Assembly: GCA_964510885.1 (NCBI GenBank) | Contig: CAZEDL010000001.1 | Span: forward strand, 129,310-193,309 | Direction of reading: 5' to 3' | Source: an uncultured Gammaproteobacteria bacterium | GTDB taxonomy: Bacteria > Patescibacteriota > Patescibacteriia > Magasanikbacterales > GWA2-37-8 | Length of the DNA stretch: 64,000 bases | Shown: in pieces, positions 905-17,902 of the stretch | How the letters are laid out: every line of letters starts with the position of its first letter | How positions within the stretch are numbered: position 1 is the first letter of the stretch | Notes under the pieces: generated by a model | Database searches by the model: none | Told to the model about the DNA's origin: nothing | The model's input: the letters and a program-made list of their open reading frames with translations, nothing else | Position numbers and translations under genes: made by a program

Positions 905-977
905 TGGGTCGGCTGGGGTTCGAACCCAGGACCTTATCCTTAAAAGGGATCTGCTCTACCAGCTGAGCTACCGACCC
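905..977 (-). tRNA. tRNA-Lys (anticodon TTT)
   Basis: The reverse complement reads GGGTCGGTAGCTCAGCTGGTAGAGCAGATCCCTTTTAAGGATAAGGTCCTGGGTTCGAACCCCAGCCGACCCA. It has a 7-bp acceptor stem, a D-arm GCTC/GAGC, an anticodon loop CTTTTAA and a T-arm CTGGG-TTCGAAC-CCCAG. No CCA is encoded. Confidence 0.85.
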
Positions 978-4565: not shown

Positions 4566-4636
4566 TGCGGGCGTAGTACAATGGTAGTACATTGGCTTCC
4601 CAAGCCAAGGACGTGGGTCCGATTCCCATCGCCCGC
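4566..4636 (+). tRNA. tRNA-Gly (anticodon CCC)
   Basis: GCGGGCGTAGTACAATGGTAGTACATTGGCTTCCCAAGCCAAGGACGTGGGTCCGATTCCCATCGCCCGCT. Cloverleaf with anticodon loop TTCCCAA. Very close to canonical bacterial tRNA-Gly(CCC). Confidence 0.85.
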
Positions 4637-4694
4637 TCAAAAATGAAATAAAATTTGACAACTAAATTAATCTACCGAACTTGATAACTTCCCT

Positions 4695-6013: not shown

Positions 6014-6086
6014 GCCGCCTTAGCTCAGTTGGTAGAGCGACACATTCGTAACGTGTAGGTCCGGGGTTCGATCCCCCGAGGTGGCT
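6014..6086 (+). tRNA. tRNA-Thr (anticodon CGT)
   Basis: GCCGCCTTAGCTCAGTTGGTAGAGCGACACATTCGTAACGTGTAGGTCCGGGGTTCGATCCCCCGAGGTGGCT. Anticodon loop TTCGTAA. Resembles E. coli tRNA-Thr(CGU). Confidence 0.8.
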
Positions 6087-6155: not shown

Positions 6156-6836
6156 ATGATAAAGCTGCATGGTGTTTCCAAATTCTATTCTCACAATTCA
6201 GTCGGCCTTCGCGATATTAATCTTGATATCAAAGCCGGAGAATTTGTCTCGGTAGTTGGCCAAAGTGGGGTAGGCAAGACCACTTTCATCAAACTTCTTA
6301 TTGCCGAAGAACGCCCTACCAAGGGTACCATCGAAATCGGCGGCTGGAATATTACCAAAATTAACCGTGATACCATTCCATACCTTCGCCGCCAGATCGG
6401 CGTAATTTTTCAGGATTTTAAATTATTGCCCAAAAAAACCGTGTTTGAAAATGTAGCTTTTGCTCTCGAAGTCGCTGGTGCACCATCCTCGCGAATCAAA
6501 GAAGTTGTCCCAAAAGTTCTTGATATCGTCGGCCTCAGCGGCAAACACCACCGCTTTCCGAACCAGATCTCTGGTGGAGAGCAGCAGCGCGTGGTTATTG
6601 CCCGATCCCTGGTGCATACACCAAAAATTATTGTGGCCGATGAGCCCACTGGCAACCTTGATTCGATTAACACCGAAGAAATTATTTCTATTCTAAAAAA
6701 AATCAACGAATTCGGCACCACGATAGTGCTTGTTACGCATAATCGCGAAGTGGTTAATCACCTACGACGCCGTGTCGTCACCTTGCATGACGGCCAAATT
6801 ATCAATGATAGCCTAGAAGGAAAGTATATCTTATAA
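6156..6836 (+). CDS. ftsE: Cell division ABC ATPase FtsE
   Basis: Walker A GQSGVGKTT, signature ISGGEQQRVVIARSL and Walker B IIVADEPTGNLD. Immediately upstream of the FtsX-like permease. Confidence 0.85.
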   Translation: MIKLHGVSKFYSHNSVGLRDINLDIKAGEFVSVVGQSGVGKTTFIKLLIAEERPTKGTIEIGGWNITKINRDTIPYLRRQIGVIFQDFKLLPKKTVFENVAFALEVAGAPSSRIKEVVPKVLDIVGLSGKHHRFPNQISGGEQQRVVIARSLVHTPKIIVADEPTGNLDSINTEEIISILKKINEFGTTIVLVTHNREVVNHLRRRVVTLHDGQIINDSLEGKYIL

Positions 6837-6904
6837 AAGCTTGTTCTTTGCGTATAATTACTAACAATTTAGCATTGTAACACTTTAACAATTCCGGCAT
6901 ACGT

Positions 6905-7813
6905 ATGGTATCACTACTCCGAATCATAAAATTCGCCTTTCAAGACATCGCTCGCAACCTCGGCCTGTCGCTCATGACGGTGTTTATTTTGGTGCTCATG
7001 CTTGTTTCGGTCAACATGCTCTGGTCCGTGAAGATTCTTACCACCGAAGCCGTCACCTTAGTGAAAGATCAGGTAAATGTCAGCCTCTACCTGAACGGTG
7101 AAGTGACCGACAAGGATGTCACCAGTGTTACCGATTACATCAAATCATTCCCCGAAGTTACGAGCCTCAAAACCCTCACTCGAGCCGAAGTGCTACAGAC
7201 ATTTAAAGATCGTCACCAGGTACGCACAGAAGTATTGCAAGCGCTTGAAGAACTTGGGGGCAACCCATTTGGCCCGACCCTTGTCATCACTGCCCGAGAA
7301 CCTGGGGATTACACCAAAATTATTGATGCCCTGAATGTCCCAGAATATGATCATCTGATCGAGGCTAAAAGCTTCGATGGGCATGAAGCCGCTATTGACC
7401 GTATCCAGATCATTACGAACCGGGTAGAAAAAATCGGGCTTGGCTTATCGCTCGTGTTTGCGATTATTTCGTTCTTGATCATCTTTAATACCATCCGTGT
7501 AGCCATCTATACCCAGCGGGTAGAAATCAGCATCAAACGCCTCGTAGGGGCGAATAACTGGTTCATTCGTGGCCCATACCTCGTGGAATCAGTCATTTTC
7601 ACCTTCATTAGCCTGGTGATCACTGGCGGCCTGATTTACTTTACCCTTAGCCATTTTGACCCCTATTTAAGCGTAGTCTTCCCCAGCTCCTTCTCCTTGA
7701 CAAGTTACTATAAGTTGCATATCTTGTTCTTGTGCTTAATCCAAGGCGGAGCGGTATTATTCCTGACCACCATCTCCAGCAGCCTAGCGATGAGCAAAAA
7801 TCTCAAAGTCTAG
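6905..7813 (+). CDS. ftsX: Cell division permease FtsX
   Basis: N-terminal TM segment, periplasmic domain, and a C-terminal three-TM bundle with the FtsX-type segment (GANNWFIRGPYL). Confidence 0.8.
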   Translation: MVSLLRIIKFAFQDIARNLGLSLMTVFILVLMLVSVNMLWSVKILTTEAVTLVKDQVNVSLYLNGEVTDKDVTSVTDYIKSFPEVTSLKTLTRAEVLQTFKDRHQVRTEVLQALEELGGNPFGPTLVITAREPGDYTKIIDALNVPEYDHLIEAKSFDGHEAAIDRIQIITNRVEKIGLGLSLVFAIISFLIIFNTIRVAIYTQRVEISIKRLVGANNWFIRGPYLVESVIFTFISLVITGGLIYFTLSHFDPYLSVVFPSSFSLTSYYKLHILFLCLIQGGAVLFLTTISSSLAMSKNLKV

Positions 7814-7875: not shown

Positions 7876-7946
7876 TCGGGGATCGTCTAACGGTAGGACA
7901 GCAGCCTTTGAAGCTGTTTATCTTGGTTCGATTCCAAGTCCCCGAG
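7876..7946 (+). tRNA. tRNA-Gln (anticodon TTG)
   Basis: TCGGGGATCGTCTAACGGTAGGACAGCAGCCTTTGAAGCTGTTTATCTTGGTTCGATTCCAAGTCCCCGAG. 7-bp acceptor stem TCGGGGA/TCCCCGA, anticodon loop CTTTGAA. Confidence 0.8.
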
Positions 7947-8043: not shown

Positions 8044-9342
8044 ATGTCCACTTCCGCCATCCGCTGCCCCCACTGCAAGAACGAAATCGAACTGACCGAA
8101 ACCCTCACCGGGCATATTAAAACCGAGTTGCAAGCCGAATTTGACACCAAGCAGCGCCTCCAGGCCGAACTGGTGGCCAAGAAAGAACAAGCCCTAAAAG
8201 ACGCCCTCGAAAAACTCGATCAGGAGAAAGCCAGTCTAAAAGAAGCGGTGGATGCCAAGGTCAAAACCGAAAAAGAAAAACTCTGGACCGTAGCCCAAGA
8301 AAAAGCCCAGGAAAAGTTTAGCCTCGAACTACAAGATTTAAAACTCCAGAAACAAGAACGCGATCGCCAGCTTGAAGAAGCGCGTAAAAACGAACTCGAG
8401 CTCCGCGCAGCGGCTAGAGAACTAGAGGAAAAAACTAAAAATCTGGATTTAGAATTAGAGCGCAAACTTGATGCTGAACGCAAAAAAGTTGAAGCAAAAT
8501 TGAAAGGTGAACAAACACAGCTTCTCGACGATAAACTCCGTACCATGCAAGAGGAATTCCGCCTGAAAGAGCTAGAAAAAGATAAGCAGATGGAAATTTT
8601 GAAAAAATCCCTTGACGAAGCCCAGCGTAAATCTGCCCAGGCCTCCATGCAAATTCAGGGTGAAGTGCAAGAAGCAGATCTGAAGCGGCTGCTCGAAACC
8701 AATTTCCCGCTAGATATTATCAGCGATGTACCAACTGGTATCAAAGGCGCAGATTTAGTGCAGACTGTAAAAACCCCTTTCGGGCAGGCGTGTGGTATAA
8801 TTCTCTGGGAATCAAAAAATACCAAGCAATGGAGTGCTGACTGGATAAAAAAAATGAAAGGGGATCAAGGCCTCGCTAATGCCGATGTGTGTATTATTGT
8901 GTCCAAAGTCTTACCCGATACCATCTCCACCTTCGGCTGTCTCGACGGTATTTGGGTGCTTGATGCCGCCTATGCCATACCAGTCACAGCAATGCTGCGC
9001 CAACATCTAATGGAATTAAGCCAAGCAAAAAATTCACTAGTCGGTCAGGAAACCAAAAAAGATTACTTATACGAATATATTTCGAGTCCTCAATTCAAGA
9101 ATCGCCTAGAAAATATTATCATGGGCTTTACCAGTCTAAAACAAGATCTCGAAACCGAAAAACGCTCTATGCAACGCATCTGGAGCAAACGGGAAAAAGA
9201 AATCGAACGGGTGATTATGAGTACCAGCGGGCTCTACGGCGATATGCAGGGCATCATCGGGGCCAGCTTACCAAGCGTACCAATCCTTGAGCTAGACGCA
9301 AGTGAACCAGAGCCTGAGGCGGCAAATCTTACTCTTATCTAA
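8044..9342 (+). CDS. DUF2130-like protein: N-terminal CxxC, long coiled coil, C-terminal PD-(D/E)xK-like nuclease domain (RmuC-related)
   Basis: CPHCKNEIEL at the N-terminus. About 170 aa of E/K/L-rich heptads follow. The C-terminal GADLVQTVKTPFGQACGIILWESKNTKQW...VCIIVSKVLP has a D...E-x-K arrangement. Confidence 0.6.
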   Translation: MSTSAIRCPHCKNEIELTETLTGHIKTELQAEFDTKQRLQAELVAKKEQALKDALEKLDQEKASLKEAVDAKVKTEKEKLWTVAQEKAQEKFSLELQDLKLQKQERDRQLEEARKNELELRAAARELEEKTKNLDLELERKLDAERKKVEAKLKGEQTQLLDDKLRTMQEEFRLKELEKDKQMEILKKSLDEAQRKSAQASMQIQGEVQEADLKRLLETNFPLDIISDVPTGIKGADLVQTVKTPFGQACGIILWESKNTKQWSADWIKKMKGDQGLANADVCIIVSKVLPDTISTFGCLDGIWVLDAAYAIPVTAMLRQHLMELSQAKNSLVGQETKKDYLYEYISSPQFKNRLENIIMGFTSLKQDLETEKRSMQRIWSKREKEIERVIMSTSGLYGDMQGIIGASLPSVPILELDASEPEPEAANLTLI

Positions 9343-9358
9343 ATTAACTTTTTGTCAT

Positions 9359-10381
9359 ATGAAAGCGCTGATACTAACAGCACTGACTGCCCTTGGTTTG
9401 GTGACCACACCTGCCAAACCGGTGAAACCAATTACTGAACCGACTAAAACTACTTCACCGACCGCGACTGCCAAGTCAAAAATGCCTGTCAAATCACAGG
9501 TCACAAAAATAAAGCCTGCCACCAAGCCAACGACTGCCAAGAAAACCGTTCCTGGTGTCAAGAAAGCATCTGATTTAAAAGTGCCCGCCTCAAAAATTAT
9601 TGAGATTGCACTTCCACTCCCTAAAAAAAATAAAACCACACCCGCCAAGGACCGCGATATATCCAATCCCGAGCCTTTCACCATGAGTGAAAATGAAATC
9701 TCCAAAAGTCCGCTCACCGTGGCCGGGGTTTTAGCCTTTACTAACGCTGCAAGGCATGATAATGGCGATATTACTGCACTCAAAGGCAATGCTTTATTAA
9801 ATAAAGTAGCAGGCTTACGTCTCAAAGACATGTTTGACAAACAATATTTTGCCCATGTATCGCCAAGCGGTATCGGGCCGTCTGAAATTGCTGGCGATGT
9901 GGGATACGAATATCTAACTCTTGGTGAAAATATTGCCCGCGGCACTTTTGCTGATGATGCAGCTCTTGTAACTGCCTGGATGAACAGCCCGCATCACCGT
10001 GAAAATATCGTTAATCCCAAATATCAAGAACTAGGTATTGCTGTAGGAGAGGGGACATACGAAGGGCACAGCACGTGGCTAGCGGTGCAGGTATTTGGGA
10101 CAGCTGCCAGCGTCTGCCCCGAACCTGACGAAACGCTAAAAACCAGCATCAATGCTGCAAGTGGCGAAGTTAATACTCTAGCTGAATCAGCTGCTAAAAT
10201 TCAAAGTGAATTAGAAAAATTGAGCCCCAAAACATCTCTTGAAATTGAAAACTATAATGTTAAAATTAACGAATACAATGATCTAGCCCAAAAAATCACT
10301 GCTTTAAATGAATCCATAAAACTAAAAATAAAAACCTATAATGGACAGTCAAACAGTTATAATAAATGCATAAACGGTTAA
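9359..10381 (+). CDS. Secreted CAP/SCP/PR-1 domain protein with Pro/Thr/Lys-rich linker and C-terminal coiled region
   Basis: Signal peptide MKALILTALTALGLVTT. CAP motifs AWMNSPHHRENIVNPKYQELGIAVGEG. Start set to the ATG at 9359 rather than the track's 9302, which overlaps the upstream gene. Confidence 0.75.
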   Translation: MKALILTALTALGLVTTPAKPVKPITEPTKTTSPTATAKSKMPVKSQVTKIKPATKPTTAKKTVPGVKKASDLKVPASKIIEIALPLPKKNKTTPAKDRDISNPEPFTMSENEISKSPLTVAGVLAFTNAARHDNGDITALKGNALLNKVAGLRLKDMFDKQYFAHVSPSGIGPSEIAGDVGYEYLTLGENIARGTFADDAALVTAWMNSPHHRENIVNPKYQELGIAVGEGTYEGHSTWLAVQVFGTAASVCPEPDETLKTSINAASGEVNTLAESAAKIQSELEKLSPKTSLEIENYNVKINEYNDLAQKITALNESIKLKIKTYNGQSNSYNKCING

Positions 10382-10394
10382 ATCTGACTCACCT

Positions 10395-11912
10395 ATGAAA
10401 TATATTGATGGTTTGTTGAACAAGATAACAATGTATCGACTGGTATTATATTGTTTAATCGGCTTGTCAATTATCGCCATCATCTTCGGCTTTGTCGGCA
10501 TCATTTCCTACCGCGGAAGTGAATTGTCGATCTCACTGATTTTACTTCTTGCTATCTGCTCGGCTGTAAATTATGCTTTCGCCAAACTGTATAAGGCACC
10601 AGTAAATATCGAGTCAACTTTTATCACGGCGTACATCTTGTTTTTGATCATGTTTCCAGCTGGCAGTGTGCAGGGAGCTCTATACCTTGCTCTGACTGGT
10701 TTTATTGCGGTGGCATCGAAATATGTCATTGCTCTGAATCATAAACATCTTTTCAACCCAGCTGCTTTTGCGCCCGCGCTGCTAGGGTTTACACCTATCG
10801 GTGGCGCAGCTTGGTGGGTTGGCTCTATGTATCTTTTGCCGCTAACGCTCATTGCCGGCTTGCTAATCGTGCGCAAAATTCGCCGCGAAGTCTTATTTTT
10901 TAGCTGTGTAGTGGCCAGCATAATCACCGTCATAGTTCTCGGTGTAGTGCACGACTCTAATTTACTCGACATCATTAAGCAACACTTCTTATCCTGGCCG
11001 ATAATCTTTTTTGCCGCGGTCATGGTCACCGAGCCGCTCACGACGCCCCCTACCAAACGTTTACAAATCATCTACGGCGCACTCGTTGGCACCATCTCGA
11101 GCTGGCCCTTCCATATCGGCACTATTTTTTCTACCCCCGAACTTACTCTAGTAATGGCCAACTTATTTTCATACAGCGTAAGTTTACGACGACGCCTTAC
11201 GCTGGTGCTTAAAAGCAAACAAGAAATTGCTACGGGCACGTACGAGTTTATCTTTGATCCAGGTTGCACCGTAGCATTTAAAGCTGGTCAGTATCTTGAG
11301 TGGACACTACCGCATGCCAAACCAGACGATCGCGGCAATCGGCGCTATTTCACCGTTGCCTCATCTCCGACAGAGCGGAATCTGCACCTTGGCGTGCGCT
11401 ATGGCGACACGTGCAGCTCCTTCAAACGGGCATTAATGAACCTGGAGCCAGGTGGACACCTCACCGCCGGTCAGTTGGCTGGTGACTTTACCCTTCCCGC
11501 CGACACCACACTACCACTAGTTTTTATTGCTGGTGGTATCGGTATCACCCCATTTCGCAGCATGATCAAGTATCTGCTCGATAAAAAAGAATCGCGCGAT
11601 ATAATTCTTTTCTACACCAACCGGACAGCCGCTGATATCGCCTATAATGACCTTTTCGCCGAGGGAGCTAGGGTATTAAAATTAAAAACTGTCTATATTT
11701 TGACCGAACGCGGAGCCGTACCGGGAGATTGGTCTGGCGAGACCGGTTTTATTACCGCCGATATGATAAAAAAGCATGTCCCAAATTTTTCTAGTCGCCA
11801 ATTTTATCTCTCCGGGCCAAATGGCATGGTTGACTCCTACGCCCAGCTACTCAAAACCATGGGAGTAAATCGCCGACAGATACACAGTGATTACTTCCCG
11901 GGCTTTGCTTGA
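10395..11912 (+). CDS. Polytopic membrane protein fused to an FNR-type FAD/NAD(P)-binding reductase domain
   Basis: About 270 aa with multiple TM helices. The C-terminus has RRYFTVASSP (the FNR R-x-Y-S/T FAD motif), GGIGITPFRSM (NAD(P) binding) and FYLSGPNGMV. Confidence 0.7.
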   Translation: MKYIDGLLNKITMYRLVLYCLIGLSIIAIIFGFVGIISYRGSELSISLILLLAICSAVNYAFAKLYKAPVNIESTFITAYILFLIMFPAGSVQGALYLALTGFIAVASKYVIALNHKHLFNPAAFAPALLGFTPIGGAAWWVGSMYLLPLTLIAGLLIVRKIRREVLFFSCVVASIITVIVLGVVHDSNLLDIIKQHFLSWPIIFFAAVMVTEPLTTPPTKRLQIIYGALVGTISSWPFHIGTIFSTPELTLVMANLFSYSVSLRRRLTLVLKSKQEIATGTYEFIFDPGCTVAFKAGQYLEWTLPHAKPDDRGNRRYFTVASSPTERNLHLGVRYGDTCSSFKRALMNLEPGGHLTAGQLAGDFTLPADTTLPLVFIAGGIGITPFRSMIKYLLDKKESRDIILFYTNRTAADIAYNDLFAEGARVLKLKTVYILTERGAVPGDWSGETGFITADMIKKHVPNFSSRQFYLSGPNGMVDSYAQLLKTMGVNRRQIHSDYFPGFA

Positions 11913-11913
11913 T

Positions 11914-12789
11914 ATGGCCCCCCTTATTTTTTCGTATCAAGCACTCGGCACAGAGTGGCGCATCACCGTTTGGCATGAATTAGAACCCGCTGCCTGGACA
12001 AAGCTTCAAGAACAAATTCTGGCCGTATCGACTAAATTTGATCACACCTACTCACGGTTTATTAAAACTTCGTTTGTGTGGTCAGTTGCCAAGCAGCAGG
12101 GGGCAATTGCCGTGCCAGCAGATTTCATGGCCATGCTACGCTGGTATTTTGACCTTTACCGGCCATCCCACCAAAAATTCTCCCCTCTGATCGGGTTTAC
12201 CCTTAGCGATCTTGGTTACGATGCCGATTATTCGCTCACCGAAAAACCATCTATTCGGCCAACACCGGATCTTGAAAAAACCGTAAAAATTATTGACGAT
12301 TCACATATTCAACTGGCAGAACCGGTGTTGTTTGATTTTGGAGCCCTTGGAAAAGGATACCTAGTAGACAAAATAGCCAGACTTCTAAAAGCCAACGCAC
12401 TTGAGTATTTTTTAGTAGACGGGAGCGGTGATATCAACTACCAAGGCCACCCAGATTTCCCGCTGCGCGTCGGACTCGAAGATCCTGGCGATCCCACCAA
12501 AGTGATCGGGGTACTCGAGCTAAAATCAGGGGCTTTATGCGGTTCAGGAACTAACCGCCGCAAATGGGGGAATCATCATCATATCATCGACCCAAGCACC
12601 GGCCGATCCACCGAGGGAATTGTGGCGGCGTGGATTCTATCTGAATCAGCCACCTTGTCTGACGCCTTGGCCACCACTTTATTTTTGGCTGAACCAGAAC
12701 GGTTCTCACATTTAAATTTTGAATACTGTCTACTTAACAAAGACTATAAAATAAAACGCTCCGCCGGTTTTACGGCAGAGCTATTTTAA
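11914..12789 (+). CDS. apbE: FAD:protein FMN transferase (ApbE family)
   Basis: ApbE core FDFGALGKGYLVDKIARLL...DGSGDI. ATG at 11914 is one nt after the upstream stop. The track's 11887 start overlaps the upstream gene. Confidence 0.8.
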   Translation: MAPLIFSYQALGTEWRITVWHELEPAAWTKLQEQILAVSTKFDHTYSRFIKTSFVWSVAKQQGAIAVPADFMAMLRWYFDLYRPSHQKFSPLIGFTLSDLGYDADYSLTEKPSIRPTPDLEKTVKIIDDSHIQLAEPVLFDFGALGKGYLVDKIARLLKANALEYFLVDGSGDINYQGHPDFPLRVGLEDPGDPTKVIGVLELKSGALCGSGTNRRKWGNHHHIIDPSTGRSTEGIVAAWILSESATLSDALATTLFLAEPERFSHLNFEYCLLNKDYKIKRSAGFTAELF

Positions 12790-12808
12790 GAAGTTATTTT
12801 TTCAGTGA

Positions 12809-13378
12809 TTAGGCGGCGGCTTGTGCTTTGATCTTTACCAAGGCATCCATGAAGCCTTTTGATACCAGCGAAGCTCCATTTACCACACTGAGTGACACAC
12901 TGTCAATCGGCTTGCCAACCACTTGCTCTTTAAAGCCTTCGTTAAAACGATCCTGCATTTTTTGACTGATTGGGTTCTGAGAACTACCGCTAAAAGTAGC
13001 GTCAATAATTTCGCCCGCCTTAACAGTTAATCCGATCATGATTTTTTCCTGACCAGCCGGAGAGACATATACTCCTTCAGCAGAATAAGTGCCGTCAGCA
13101 TACGTTTTCTCTTCTTTAGCTGGGGGCGGAGTTGTTGGCTGGGTAGAAGGGAGACTCGTGCTGTTGTCAGGGGTAGTCGCAACCGGTTCGTTGGTCGGTG
13201 TTTCAGAGCCAGTCGGAACCGTAACATCGATTGCAGGTGCCGCAGGCTGTGCACCACGTTTGGTAAAGAGTCCGATCGCACCGGCAACTACAGCCACCGC
13301 GAGTACTGCACCGACAATTTTTGGAGTATTAGACCCTCCTGCTTTAAACGGAGAATTTGATTGCATCTCTGGGCTCAT
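12809..13378 (-). CDS. Membrane-anchored FMN-binding domain protein (FMN_bind), likely flavinylation substrate
   Basis: N-terminal TM anchor followed by a Pro/Thr linker. C-terminal DGTYSAEGVYVSPAGQEKIMIGLTVKAGEII...IDSVSLSVVNGASLVSKGFMDAL matches the FMN_bind domain with a GAS site equivalent to SGAT. Convergent with apbE. Confidence 0.75.
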   Translation of the reverse strand: MSPEMQSNSPFKAGGSNTPKIVGAVLAVAVVAGAIGLFTKRGAQPAAPAIDVTVPTGSETPTNEPVATTPDNSTSLPSTQPTTPPPAKEEKTYADGTYSAEGVYVSPAGQEKIMIGLTVKAGEIIDATFSGSSQNPISQKMQDRFNEGFKEQVVGKPIDSVSLSVVNGASLVSKGFMDALVKIKAQAAA

Positions 13379-15636: not shown

Positions 15637-16041
15637 ATGAACCTCAAACGATACCTAACGTTTATGTCGATCGGCACAGTGTTGTGCTGGATCGCCTGGG
15701 GCTCAATCGTCTATAGCCTTGATCCCACCGCCGGCGGAGCCTTTGCTATTATCTTTTTTTATAGCAGCTTATTTTTAGCTGTTCTCGGCACCGTATCGGT
15801 GGCCGGATTTTTTGGGCGCTGGCTGCTTATCAAACATGATGAAGTAGTCTTTCGCCATGTCCGTCGCACGTTTCGGCAAGCAATTATTGCTGCCACCTTG
15901 GTTGACCTTACGTTGATATTGCTTCATGCTGGGTTACTGCGCTGGTGGAATAGCTTACTATTAATTTTGCTTGGATTCCTAGTAGAAGCGGTATTCTTCA
16001 CGAATCGTAAATATCGTAATCATGATTATGTGGCGCCCTAA
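15637..16041 (+). CDS. Hypothetical small membrane protein
   Basis: 134 aa with four predicted TM helices. Overlaps the mreB start by about 20 nt. Confidence 0.5.
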   Translation: MNLKRYLTFMSIGTVLCWIAWGSIVYSLDPTAGGAFAIIFFYSSLFLAVLGTVSVAGFFGRWLLIKHDEVVFRHVRRTFRQAIIAATLVDLTLILLHAGLLRWWNSLLLILLGFLVEAVFFTNRKYRNHDYVAP

Positions 16042-17077
16042 TGTTTTTCAAAAATTTAGCAAAGAGATCGGCATTGATCTTGGCACGGCCAACACGCTAG
16101 TGTATGTCAAAGGCCGCGGTATTATCATTAACGAACCTAGCATTGTCGCCATCAACACTCGCACCGAACAAATTCTGGCCGTCGGCAGCGAAGCCAAAGA
16201 AATGCTTGGCAAAACACCACCTCACATTGTCACCACCCGTCCACTCACGAATGGTATCATTTCTGATTTTGAGGTCGCCGAAAAAATGCTGCGCTATTTT
16301 ATTGATAAAGTGTACGAAGATAGTGGGCTTAGTTTTTTCACCCGCCCCACCGTAGTGGTAGGGGCCCCGGTTGATATTACTGAGGTAGAACGTAAAGCCA
16401 TCGGCGACGCCGTACTGAACGCCGGTGCTCGCTCAGTTTATATCGTAGAAGAACCAATGGCCGCGGCCATCGGGTCGCGCATGCCAGCTCGTGAACCGGT
16501 CGGCAATCTAATTGTAGAAATTGGCGGTGGCACCTGCGAGATAGCCGTTATTTCACTCAGCGGTATTGCTGCCAAAAAATCAATTAAAATTGCTGGAGAT
16601 GAATTAAACCGAAACATTATCCAGTATGCACGTGACGTCTTCAAGCTCCTGCTCGGAGAACGTCAAGCCGAAGAAATAAAAATAAAAGTTGGCTCTGCTA
16701 TCGAGCTACCAGAACCCCTCGAATTCCCCATGCGCGGCCGTGATCTTGTCACGGGTTTGCCGCGTGAGGTGATGATCAATGACGCTGAAGTGCGCGAATC
16801 AATGATCAAATCTCTGCGCACTATCGTCGATAATATAAAACTTACTATCGAAACTACTCCACCTGAATTGGTAGCCGATATTCACGAACGAGGAATCTTA
16901 TTATCTGGCGGCGGCTCGCTCCTGCGCGGTCTGGATCAGCTTATTTCTAAAGCGGTCGAAATCCCAGTTCGCATTGCCGATGACCCGCTAACATCGGTTG
17001 TTCGAGGTGCAGGGGCACTCCTCGATGACCGTGAACTTCTTGATGAAGTAGCTGTTTGGCCGACCAAACAAAAATAG
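16022..17077 (+). CDS. mreB: Rod shape-determining actin homologue MreB
   Basis: GIDLGTANTLVYVKGRGIIINEPSIVA plus the actin-fold phosphate and adenosine motifs. Confidence 0.9.
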   Translation: MIMWRPNVFQKFSKEIGIDLGTANTLVYVKGRGIIINEPSIVAINTRTEQILAVGSEAKEMLGKTPPHIVTTRPLTNGIISDFEVAEKMLRYFIDKVYEDSGLSFFTRPTVVVGAPVDITEVERKAIGDAVLNAGARSVYIVEEPMAAAIGSRMPAREPVGNLIVEIGGGTCEIAVISLSGIAAKKSIKIAGDELNRNIIQYARDVFKLLLGERQAEEIKIKVGSAIELPEPLEFPMRGRDLVTGLPREVMINDAEVRESMIKSLRTIVDNIKLTIETTPPELVADIHERGILLSGGGSLLRGLDQLISKAVEIPVRIADDPLTSVVRGAGALLDDRELLDEVAVWPTKQK

Positions 17078-17098
17078 TCTGATTTTCGCTGTTATCTC

Positions 17099-17902
17099 AT
17101 GCGGACTCTTGCTTCCAAAACAATTTACCTGGCAGCCATGGGAATCGTAACGTTACTGATGCTATTCCATTTCTTAGGCTGGCTCCGTTCCGTAGAAAAT
17201 TGGTTTAGAAATTTGTTGACCCCATTTTTTTCTGGCACCCACAGCTTCAGCATCAAAGTAGGGGACAGTTACGAATTTTTTTCAAATCGACAGAGTGTTA
17301 TTAGCGCGTATCAAGCATGCCGAGATACCTCGGCAAAAAATCAAGTTGATATGGCGACAATTGCTGTTTTGACCGAAGAAAATCAAGAGTTGAAAAAAAT
17401 ATTAGCCTTTAAAGAAAACTCCAGTCGACAATTAGTAGTGGCCAATGTGGTCGGCAACGACCTTAATGATGTAGAAAAAACAATTATTTTAAATCGTGGT
17501 CAGGCCGACGGACTAAAACTCAATCAACCCGTAATTGCAGAGAGCGGGGTGCTAATCGGCAAACTAATCGCCGTCGAAGACCAGCAGGCCATGGCCCGTT
17601 TACTGCCGGATAATCGGAGTAAAATTATTGCCGCCCTGCTGAACCAAGAACGCAGCACCGGTGTAGTTGAAGGCGGGTACGGCCTTAGCTTGCGTCTCAA
17701 GTTTATCCCTCGCAATGAAATCGTGACCGTCGGCCAGCAAGTTATCACTTCTGGTCTTGAAAATGGTATTCCAAGGGGACTATTAATCGGCACTGTGGCA
17801 GTGGTAGAAAACGAAGCCTACCAACCATTTCAACAAGCCTTGATAACTCCAATAGTAGATTACTCTAAACTCACCGTTGTCAGCGTGATTACCAACCAGT
17901 AA
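17099..17902 (+). CDS. mreC: Rod shape-determining protein MreC
   Basis: N-terminal TM segment, coiled coil, and the C-terminal beta-domain motif VITSGLENGIPRGLLIGTV. Follows mreB. Confidence 0.8.
   Translation: MRTLASKTIYLAAMGIVTLLMLFHFLGWLRSVENWFRNLLTPFFSGTHSFSIKVGDSYEFFSNRQSVISAYQACRDTSAKNQVDMATIAVLTEENQELKKILAFKENSSRQLVVANVVGNDLNDVEKTIILNRGQADGLKLNQPVIAESGVLIGKLIAVEDQQAMARLLPDNRSKIIAALLNQERSTGVVEGGYGLSLRLKFIPRNEIVTVGQQVITSGLENGIPRGLLIGTVAVVENEAYQPFQQALITPIVDYSKLTVVSVITNQ

What the first reader, a model, noticed from the sequence alone, without database searches (positions are those of the whole stretch)
10395..13378. Putative flavinylation/extracytoplasmic electron-transfer module in a streamlined genome
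Three adjacent genes encode a polytopic membrane protein fused to an FNR-type FAD/NAD(P)H reductase domain, an ApbE-family FMN transferase, and a convergent membrane-anchored FMN_bind-domain protein carrying a GAS flavinylation-type site. ApbE covalently attaches FMN to FMN_bind-type domains in systems such as NQR, RNF and the Listeria EET pathway. This minimal trio has no recognisable quinone-linked partners in the window. It may be a stand-alone NAD(P)H-to-extracytoplasmic-acceptor route.
Basis: partly seen in the sequence, partly recalled or inferred. Interest (0 to 1): 0.55.

Follow-up and report, generated by a model that had tools for sequence, protein, structure and literature searches.

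The report
Known NQR/RNF-like flavin electron-transfer trio
These three genes are a real, conserved module: an NAD(P)H-oxidising membrane protein, a flavin-attaching enzyme and a small membrane-anchored flavin carrier. The type was already described from genome surveys in 2021 as the "NQR/RNF-like" system, so it is a new example rather than a new kind, with one unexplained point, that the flavin-attaching enzyme has no export signal.

Summary

All three gene types occur together in 65 of 80 related loci from Patescibacteria (CPR) and Chloroflexota. This is the "NQR/RNF-like" system defined by Meheust et al. 2021 and modelled by Huang et al. 2024. It has been described bioinformatically but never tested by experiment.

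Three points go beyond the papers:
- This locus belongs to a minority sub-type: acceptor motif N/S-G-S/A-S, a ~290-aa ApbE, and an FMN-binding subunit that gives no match to Pfam PF04205.
- The membrane domain scores just below Pfam's PF03116 cut-off, so Pfam-based censuses undercount the system.
- None of the 185 associated ApbEs examined has a signal peptide, yet the flavin carrier is clearly exported (lipoboxes in 39 of 169 relatives).

The last point is unexplained. Interest is moderate.

The parts
10395..11912 (+). Gene F: RnfD/NqrB-like membrane domain fused to an FNR-type reductase (505 aa)
10395..11189 (+). F residues 1-265: ten-helix RnfD/NqrB-fold domain. It lacks the loop that carries the flavinylated Thr in RnfD. 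Invariant residues include N71, S74, K109, H118, N121-P122, W140-W141, K161 and T212-E213-P214.
11190..11909 (+). F residues 266-505: FNR-type FAD/NAD(P)H module. RRYFTV (FAD) is at 11340-11357 and GGIGITP (NAD(P)H) at 11532-11552.
11887..12789 (+). ApbE-family FAD:protein FMN transferase, leaderless. The longest possible ORF starts at GTG 11887. The 291-aa form held in the database (source NCBI) starts at ATG 11914, 1 nt after the stop codon of F.
   Evidence: PF02424 E 8.7e-42, domain starting at residue 20. Aligned to solved ApbEs with HHIIDP, GKGY and SDALAT conserved. No hydrophobic N-terminal segment in any of 185 relatives.
12809..13378 (-). Gene C: membrane-anchored, divergent FMN_bind-type flavin carrier (189 aa)
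   Evidence: ORF. 34 close homologues. The domain profile finds 3,151 representative proteins at E<=1e-3. hhalign 99.15% to canonical FMN_bind partners.
13265..13318 (-). C residues 21-38: N-terminal membrane anchor (IVGAVLAVAVVAGAIGLF)
   Evidence: Read from the sequence. In 39 of 169 relatives a lipoprotein signal with a lipobox takes its place. Flanking charges across the family favour N-in, C-out.
12812..13105 (-). C residues 92-189: FMN_bind-like domain (three beta strands, then helices)
   Evidence: AF2 pLDDT above 93 for the domain. Foldseek best hits are 3o6u, 8p2a, 8p2b and RnfG 8rb8_G, mixed with IscU-like folds; E is only ~2e-3 and TM-score 0.57-0.60 when normalised by target length.
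12869..12871 (-). Codon of Ser170, the predicted FMN acceptor in N167-G-A-S170
   Evidence: Invariant in 33 of 33 homologues. Aligns with the T of SGAT. Family motifs are NGSS 105, SGSS 38 and NGAS 20. Coordinates.
12758..12781 (-). Terminator-like hairpin followed by a T run, 28 nt downstream of the stop codon of C and inside the 3' end of apbE on the other strand (weak evidence)
   Evidence: Consensus scan: 9 pairs, 7 of them G-C. The number of terminator-like sites in the region is no higher than in shuffled sequence.
10239..10266 (+). Promoter-like site about 130 nt upstream of F, inside the 3' end of the CAP-domain gene (weak evidence)
   Evidence: Consensus scan, 10 of 12 matches with an extended -10 TG.

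Best explanation
The locus encodes a member of the 'NQR/RNF-like' flavin-based transmembrane electron-transfer system.

Inferred mechanism:
1. The C-terminal FNR module of protein F oxidises NAD(P)H in the cytoplasm on FAD.
2. Electrons cross the membrane through the RnfD/NqrB-type domain of F. This domain has lost its own covalent-FMN site and probably holds a non-covalent flavin.
3. Electrons arrive on FMN bound by a phosphoester to Ser170 of the small protein C. The FMN_bind-type domain of C is tethered on the outer face of the membrane.
4. From there they pass to an acceptor that is not encoded nearby. Candidates are O2, Fe(III) or oxidised envelope or extracellular compounds. This would give quinone-less, respiration-less CPR cells an outlet for reducing equivalents.
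5. ApbE attaches the FMN.

Shown here: the identity and fold of the three parts, the conserved acceptor Ser, the conserved gene linkage, and the exported nature of the C family.

Inferred: the cofactors, the direction of electron flow, the acceptor, and where and when flavinylation happens.
For: - Domain identities.
- The flavinylated-Thr loop is lost from the RnfD-like domain. This agrees with PMC11334425.
- The C domain is homologous to canonical FMN_bind partners, with Ser170 aligned to the flavinylated Thr.
- All three gene types are present in 65 of 80 loci, usually in the operon order C-apbE-F. The closest relatives L002 and L081 keep the window's F-apbE order, and L002 also has the convergent C gene.
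- The C family is extracytoplasmic. 39 of 169 members have a lipobox, including L002 and L066, where C sits next to ApbE and F. Net charge is +1 to +2.2 on the N-terminal flank and -1.2 to +0.4 on the C-terminal flank. One member is fused to SLH domains, and others have 3 or 7 repeats of the domain.
- No Rnf/Nqr partner subunits are present in the window.
- The same model is published: PMC8238504 and PMC11334425.
Against: - None of the 185 ApbEs examined has a signal peptide or lipobox (65 linked to F in the loci, 120 database homologues). Characterised extracytoplasmic flavinylation uses an exported ApbE, and a cytosolically expressed ApbE failed to complement in Salmonella (review PMC12052999).
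- The acceptor motif N-G-A-S departs from [S/T]GA[S/T] at its first position, and Pfam FMN_bind does not match this protein.
- The structural match of the C domain to FMN_bind folds is only moderate and is interleaved with IscU-like folds.
- For this particular protein the charges flanking the anchor are balanced (K12, K20 against K40, R41), so its topology rests on the family.
- No acceptor gene lies nearby. The neighbours are FtsEX, DUF2130, a CAP-domain protein, an FkbM methyltransferase and MreBC.
- No experiment exists for any member of the system.
Confidence: 0.6

Rival explanations
1. The system is the same, but the flavin carrier works on the cytoplasmic face. The anchor of C inserts N-out, C-in. 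The leaderless ApbE flavinylates it in the cytoplasm. F+C then acts as a membrane-bound NAD(P)H:acceptor oxidoreductase, possibly coupled to ion movement through the RnfD/NqrB-like domain, rather than as an outward electron conduit.
For: ApbE is leaderless in all 185 sequences examined. Known leaderless ApbEs serve cytoplasmic substrates, for example K. pneumoniae fumarate reductase (review). The charges flanking the anchor of this particular protein are balanced.
Against: 39 of 169 family members carry lipoprotein signal peptides with a lipobox, including L002 and L066, where C sits next to ApbE and F. Family-wide charge bias favours N-in, C-out. One member is fused to SLH domains and others are multi-repeat proteins. 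Pro/Thr/Ser-rich tethers are typical of exported domains. The published multimer model treats this subunit as the extracytosolic, NqrC/RnfG-like one.
Confidence: 0.12
2. ApbE here does not flavinylate C. It has another cytoplasmic target, or acts as an FAD pyrophosphatase or flavin-trafficking protein that supplies FMN to F. C would then bind flavin non-covalently, or not at all.
For: ApbE is leaderless while C is exported. The acceptor motif is non-canonical. From my own knowledge, ApbE/Ftp family members with FAD pyrophosphatase activity are known (Treponema pallidum Ftp).
Against: The Ser at the SGAT-equivalent position is invariant across the family. apbE lies directly between C and F in most loci. 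The two C sub-types each pair with their own ApbE sub-type (~290 aa or ~247 aa), which suggests enzyme and substrate co-evolve. No [S/T]GA[S/T]-like conserved site was found in F beyond ordinary FNR motifs.
Confidence: 0.1
3. The RnfD/NqrB-like domain is mainly an ion- or solute-translocating module, since NqrB is a distant structural relative of Amt/Rh/urea channels. The FNR domain would drive or regulate transport, and the flavin carrier would be accessory.
Confidence: 0.08
4. The three genes are neighbours by chance and have no functional link.
For: In this window C is on the opposite strand and no shared operon is evident.
Against: Linkage is conserved across Patescibacteria and Chloroflexota. 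65 of 80 loci carry all three gene types, and ApbE lies within 200 nt of F in 62.
Confidence: 0.02

Closest known systems
NQR/RNF-like flavinylation-associated system (Meheust et al. 2021, eLife, PMC8238504; Huang et al. 2024, mSystems, PMC11334425)
   Same: An NqrB/RnfD-like membrane domain fused to a PF00175 NAD-binding domain. It is encoded beside apbE and a membrane-anchored NqrC/RnfG-like FMN-binding subunit. The membrane subunit lacks the conserved flavinylated Thr. It is found mainly in CPR, with Actinobacteria and Chloroflexota. No other Nqr or Rnf subunits are present.
   Different: This locus is a minority sub-type (16 of 74 typed loci). Its FMN-binding subunit has N/S-G-S/A-S instead of SGAT and gives no match to PF04205. 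Its ApbE is ~290 aa rather than ~247 aa. The gene order is F-apbE with C convergent, rather than C-apbE-F. Its PF03116 score falls just below the cut-off used to define the class. The leaderless ApbE was not found mentioned in term searches of either paper.
Na+-NQR (NqrA-F) and RNF (RnfABCDGE) complexes
   Same: The membrane domain has the RnfD/NqrB fold. The reductase module resembles the FAD/NADH domain of NqrF. The flavin carrier corresponds to NqrC/RnfG. ApbE is the maturation enzyme.
   Different: There is no NqrA/D/E or RnfA/B/C/E. There is no covalent FMN site in the B/D-type domain and no quinone or ferredoxin module. The NqrF-like and NqrB-like parts are one polypeptide. The proposed electron path is one-way rather than semicircular.
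Listeria-type flavin-based extracellular electron transfer (Ndh2, EetA/B, DmkA/B, FmnB, PplA)
   Same: An ApbE-type enzyme and an exported, membrane-tethered FMN_bind flavoprotein act as the outer electron carrier, with NADH as the ultimate donor.
   Different: Listeria routes electrons through a dedicated quinone and a type-II NADH dehydrogenase, and its ApbE (FmnB) is an exported lipoprotein. Here there is no quinone step, a different membrane module, and a leaderless ApbE.
MsrQ-like / ferric-reductase-type flavinylation clusters (PF01794 + PF00175) and NOX-type NADPH oxidases
   Same: The logic is the same: a cytoplasmic FNR-type NAD(P)H module fused to a membrane electron conduit, beside apbE and an FMN_bind gene.
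   Different: Those conduits are di-haem six-helix domains. Here the conduit is a haem-free RnfD/NqrB fold, with no PF01794 match.
Cytoplasmic ApbE of Klebsiella pneumoniae (ApbE2), which serves soluble fumarate reductase
   Same: An ApbE without a signal peptide.
   Different: Its substrate is a cytoplasmic enzyme. Here the only candidate substrate in the cluster is an exported protein.

Membership tests
NQR/RNF-like system (operational definition in PMC8238504) | [quoted passage not shown] | tested here: met
NQR/RNF-like system | A C-terminal cytosolic NAD-binding domain (PF00175) in the same polypeptide | tested here: met
NQR/RNF-like system | [quoted passage not shown] | tested here: met
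   apbE overlaps or abuts the 3' end of F, and the FMN_bind-type gene is 19 nt further on, convergent.
NQR/RNF-like system | The membrane subunit lacks the flavinylated Thr of NqrB/RnfD (PMC11334425) | tested here: met
   The RsxD segment ~152-222, which contains SQAT187, has no counterpart in F. F goes from W140 directly to W141 at that point.
NQR/RNF-like system | NAD(P)H-driven electron transfer to an extracytosolic flavinylated subunit | not testable with these tools
   No experimental data were found for any member. The leaderless ApbE leaves the site of flavinylation open.
FMN_bind (PF04205) / NqrC-RnfG-type flavin carrier | Match to the Pfam model at the gathering score | tested here: not met
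   No hit for the window protein even at E<=10. 9 of 33 homologues hit weakly, best E 1.6e-4. A direct hhalign of the family profile against E. coli RsxG gave no support (probability 8%).
FMN_bind (PF04205) / NqrC-RnfG-type flavin carrier | Homology and fold of the domain, with a Ser/Thr acceptor in an [S/T]GA[S/T]-like motif near the C terminus | tested here: met
   hhalign 99.15%, E 4e-19 against partners that do match PF04205 at E about 1e-10. Invariant Ser170 falls on the T of SGAT. The best Foldseek hit is 3o6u, but with a modest E of 2e-3.
FMN_bind (PF04205) / NqrC-RnfG-type flavin carrier | Covalently bound FMN | not testable with these tools
   This needs co-expression with ApbE, UV-fluorescent SDS-PAGE or mass spectrometry, and an S170A control.
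ApbE (PF02424) FAD:protein FMN transferase | ApbE domain with the conserved FAD/Mg2+ and catalytic motifs | tested here: met
   PF02424 E 8.7e-42. GKGY, HHIIDP and SDALAT align with solved ApbEs 1vrm and 4xgw.
ApbE (PF02424) FAD:protein FMN transferase | N-terminal lipoprotein signal or signal peptide (typical of characterised ApbEs, not strictly defining) | tested here: not met
   The domain starts at residue ~20 of the longest possible ORF. None of 185 relatives has a hydrophobic N-terminal window.
Canonical Na+-NQR or RNF complex | Presence of the other core subunits (NqrD/E or RnfA/E, RnfB/C or NqrA, RnfG/NqrC) | tested here: not met
   tblastn of E. coli RsxA, B, C, E and G against the whole window found nothing below E about 0.4. 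Only the 64-kb window was examined.
MsrQ-like / ferric-reductase membrane domain (PF01794) | Di-haem ferric-reductase transmembrane domain | tested here: not met
   No PF01794 hit at E<=10 for the N-terminal domain. The fold is RnfD/NqrB.

The most novel reading that the evidence does not exclude
In this widespread CPR/Chloroflexota system the flavin is attached in the cytoplasm by a leaderless ApbE, and the modified, still-unfolded carrier is then exported. Alternatively, ApbE reaches the outer face by an unrecognised route. Either way this would be a route of extracytoplasmic flavoprotein biogenesis that needs no FAD export. The resulting F-C pair would then be a main outlet for NAD(P)H reducing equivalents in organisms that lack quinones and respiratory chains.
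Probability: 0.2. Interest if true: 0.7.

Novelty: new member of a known kind. Interest (0 to 1): 0.4.

Why it matters
CPR/Patescibacteria have tiny genomes without respiratory chains or quinones, and how they dispose of reducing equivalents is poorly understood.

A two-protein NAD(P)H-to-outside flavin wire conserved across many CPR classes is a concrete candidate for this role. The fusion protein has thousands of database homologues. The published flavinylation survey called the CPR 'strikingly underrepresented' in flavinylation. That is partly a detection artefact: this locus fails both Pfam cut-offs on which the survey relied.

The mismatch between a leaderless ApbE and an exported substrate holds for the whole family. 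If it is real, it bears on how covalent flavoproteins are matured outside the cell. Cultivable Ktedonobacteria carry the system, so the question can be tested.

Tried and rejected
- A direct Pfam FMN_bind search of protein C, full length and domain only, found nothing.
- The profile of the C family against PDB sequences gave only spurious SufU and galectin matches, E above 0.5. The FMN_bind link therefore had to come from hhalign against canonical partners and from fold search.
- hhalign of the C domain against E. coli RsxG alone was uninformative, probability 8%.
- An exact look-up of F in the contig index found nothing on record. The cluster look-up gave no names or accessions, so the organism is placed only by its nearest relatives, all Patescibacteria (Parcubacteria, Wolfebacteria and Peribacteria types).
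- My iterated HMM for C became contaminated with ApbE through a frameshifted ORF in L041. I excluded hits that were also ApbE hits.
- Two apparent fusions would have fixed the topology, but both are artefacts. ApbE-F in L015 is bridged by a run of N. FMN_bind-ApbE in L041 is a frameshift through a second FMN_bind paralogue.
- I looked for a cryptic flavinylation site in F. All conserved Ser/Thr residues sit in ordinary FNR motifs or in the TEPLTTPPT motif shared with RnfD.
- No MsrA/MsrB and no second FMN_bind or ApbE gene was found in the window.
- The NQR/RNF-like sheet of the supplementary table in PMC8238504 is truncated in the held copy, so I could not check how those authors scored ApbE signal peptides.
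- Promoter and terminator scans gave only consensus-level matches, no more frequent than in shuffled sequence for terminators.
Full report
**What is there**

Gene F (10395-11912, +, 505 aa) has a C-terminal FNR-type module.
- Pfam NAD_binding_1 matches with E 3.7e-18. NCBIfam models of flavohaemoprotein, Fre, NqrF and related reductases cover residues ~270-501.
- The FAD motif RRYFTV and the nucleotide motif GGIGITP are present.
- Its N-terminal 265 residues score 24-27 bits against Pfam NQR2_RnfD_RnfE, just under the 27.7-bit cut-off.

I therefore tested the RnfD/NqrB assignment independently.
- A profile of 33 family members hits A. vinelandii RnfD (8ahx_D) at E 4.8e-5.
- An AlphaFold2 model built on 61 homologues has mean pLDDT 90.8.
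- No ferric-reductase domain is detectable.

A global profile alignment to E. coli RsxD is collinear except for one RsxD-only insertion of about 70 residues. That insertion contains SQAT187, the position equivalent to the flavinylated Thr187 of Vibrio RnfD (that equivalence is from my own knowledge). In F, W140 is followed directly by W141 at this point. F therefore has the RnfD/NqrB fold but not its covalent-FMN site.

Gene apbE (11887-12789, +; the 291-aa form held in the database starts at ATG 11914) is an intact ApbE. Pfam gives E 8.7e-42. The GKGY, HHIIDP and SDALAT motifs align with solved ApbEs.

Gene C (12809-13378, -, 189 aa) has a hydrophobic anchor (aa 21-38), a Pro/Thr-rich tether and a ~98-residue C-terminal domain.
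- Pfam FMN_bind does not match it at any threshold.
- 9 of 33 close homologues do match weakly.
- The domain model is confident, with pLDDT above 93.
- Its best Foldseek hit is 3o6u, which Huang et al. use as the reference FMN-bind1 structure. Other hits include the FMN domains 8p2a and 8p2b and RnfG. E-values are modest and IscU-like folds are interleaved.
- The decisive test was hhalign against the canonical FMN_bind proteins that sit beside F in other genomes. Those proteins match PF04205 at E about 1e-10. The result was probability 99.15%, E 4e-19, with the invariant Ser170 of N-G-A-S aligned on the T of SGAT.

**Conservation**

- F has more than 7,700 database relatives at E <= 1e-10. The best 120 are full length at 48-61% identity, and the names given are Parcubacteria, Wolfebacteria, Levybacteria, Doudnabacteria and similar.
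The 80 loci kept are Patescibacteria plus Chloroflexia/Ktedonobacteria, including cultivated Ktedonospora formicarum.
- In those 80 loci, 67 carry apbE (62 within 200 nt of F), 73 carry an FMN_bind-type small protein and 65 carry both. The usual order is C-apbE-F.
- Two sub-types exist. The majority has a canonical SGAT carrier and a ~247-aa ApbE. A minority (16 loci, plus the window) has the N/S-G-S/A-S carrier and a ~290-aa ApbE.
- The minority carrier domain is itself large. Its profile finds 3,151 representative proteins at E <= 1e-3, including 3- and 7-repeat proteins and one SLH-anchored protein.
- The nearest relatives keep the window's arrangement. L002 (53% identical F) has F-apbE with C convergent. 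L081 (61% identical F) has F-apbE before its contig ends, and also the upstream DUF2130 and CAP-domain genes.

**Comparison with what is known**

This is the 'NQR/RNF-like' system of Meheust et al. 2021. They defined it operationally as a PF03116 + PF00175 fusion in a flavinylation-associated cluster, and found 127 clusters, mainly in Actinobacteria and the CPR.

Huang et al. 2024 modelled the Ktedonobacter racemifer complex. They noted that the membrane subunit lacks the conserved Thr, and proposed one-way electron transfer from NAD(P)H to an extracytosolic flavin.

I found no experimental work on any member. The locus is a new member of a known but uncharacterised kind. It is not a canonical RNF or NQR: no RsxA/B/C/E/G-like gene is in the window.

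**Mechanism**

Most likely the path is NAD(P)H, then FAD in the FNR module of F (cytoplasm), then a flavin site in the RnfD/NqrB-like domain, then FMN on Ser170 of C (outside), then an unknown acceptor.

The outside location of C is supported by three family-level observations:
- lipoprotein signals with a lipobox in 39 of 169 members, including L002 and L066 within the trio context;
- flanking-charge statistics that favour N-in, C-out;
- an SLH fusion.

The topology of F (N-in, ten segments, C-in) is my inference. It rests on the predicted helices, the RKIRR loop, the attached FNR domain and the RnfD/NqrB match.

The acceptor is not indicated by context. The window neighbours are FtsEX, DUF2130, a CAP-domain protein, an FkbM methyltransferase, a DUF6938 protein and MreBC.

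A weak hint comes from related loci. MsrA and MsrB lie within 6 kb in 8 of 80 loci, directly adjacent in L020 and L052. ECF sigma factors lie nearby in 10 loci. This suggests a link with oxidative or envelope stress.

**The unexplained point**

Every ApbE linked to F begins directly with the mature ApbE domain.
- None of 185 sequences has a hydrophobic window N-terminal to the domain.
- The median N-terminal extension is 0 residues.
- This includes loci whose C protein is a lipoprotein.

According to the review PMC12052999, characterised ApbEs that serve exported substrates are themselves exported. A cytosolic version failed to complement in Salmonella. The known leaderless ApbE of K. pneumoniae serves a cytoplasmic enzyme.

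In term searches of the two NQR/RNF-like papers I found no mention of this point.

Possible resolutions are:
- flavinylation before export;
- an unrecognised export route for ApbE;
- a cytoplasm-facing carrier, which the lipobox evidence argues against;
- a different role for this ApbE.

I could not discriminate between them with the tools available.

**Verdict**

It is a new member of a known kind and of moderate interest. The added value here is:
- the sub-type whose carrier gives no match to Pfam FMN_bind;
- the much wider spread in the CPR than published;
- the family-wide mismatch between a leaderless ApbE and an exported substrate.

Noticed in passing
window 11887-12789; loci L001-L080; proteins P0155-P0274: None of the 185 ApbEs examined that are linked to or closely related to this system has a signal peptide or lipobox, although the flavin carrier they sit beside is exported. 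I found no mention of this in term searches of the two papers that define the system.
   Followed up: yes
window 10395-11189 and 12812-13105: The membrane domain scores 24-27 bits against PF03116 (cut-off 27.7) and the carrier gives no PF04205 hit. Pfam-threshold surveys would therefore see only the ApbE and PF00175 domains at this locus. This probably contributes to the reported scarcity of flavinylation systems in the CPR.
   Followed up: partly
L020 7543-8490; L052 3805-4657; L001, L032, L054, L055, L075, L079: A pair of methionine sulfoxide reductase genes (MsrA, MsrB) lies within 6 kb of the trio in 8 of 80 related loci, directly adjacent in two. ECF sigma factor genes are nearby in 10 loci. 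Neither is present in this window.
   Followed up: partly
window 8044-10381; L081 3699-5988: A DUF2130 gene and a gene for a secreted CAP-domain protein with a long Pro/Thr/Lys-rich tether lie directly upstream of F, with only a 13-nt gap before F. The same order is kept in the nearest relative (61% identical F). Whether the CAP-domain protein is functionally linked is unknown.
   Followed up: partly
P0275 (440 aa), P0276 (1005 aa), P0337 (337 aa): The carrier domain of this sub-type also occurs as 3 and 7 tandem repeats in single proteins, and fused to three SLH cell-wall-anchoring domains. This resembles the published multi-flavinylated proteins, yet the repeat proteins P0275 and P0276 give no Pfam FMN_bind match.
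   Followed up: partly
L014, L029, L051, L057, L041: Several related loci carry two FMN_bind-type carrier genes in tandem. In L041 the second copy is frameshifted and runs into apbE as an artificial 444-aa ORF.
   Followed up: partly
window 12758-12781 (-): A G+C-rich hairpin with a T run lies just downstream of the stop codon of C. It sits inside the part of apbE that encodes the conserved C-terminal peptide KRSAGFTAELF on the other strand. It may be a terminator for C.
   Followed up: no
window 905-977 (-), 4567-4637 (+), 6014-6086 (+), 7876-7946 (+): Four tRNA genes lie in the first 8 kb of the window. No other Rfam family reached its threshold anywhere in the window.
   Followed up: no
window 1-64000: GC skew is negative in every 2-kb bin and the cumulative skew falls monotonically. 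The window therefore lies within one replichore, with no origin or terminus signal. G+C is about 45% throughout.
   Followed up: no
window 6156-7813 and 16022-17902: The cell-division and shape genes ftsE/ftsX and mreB/mreC flank the region, so the trio sits among envelope housekeeping genes rather than in a redox or metal-uptake island.
   Followed up: no
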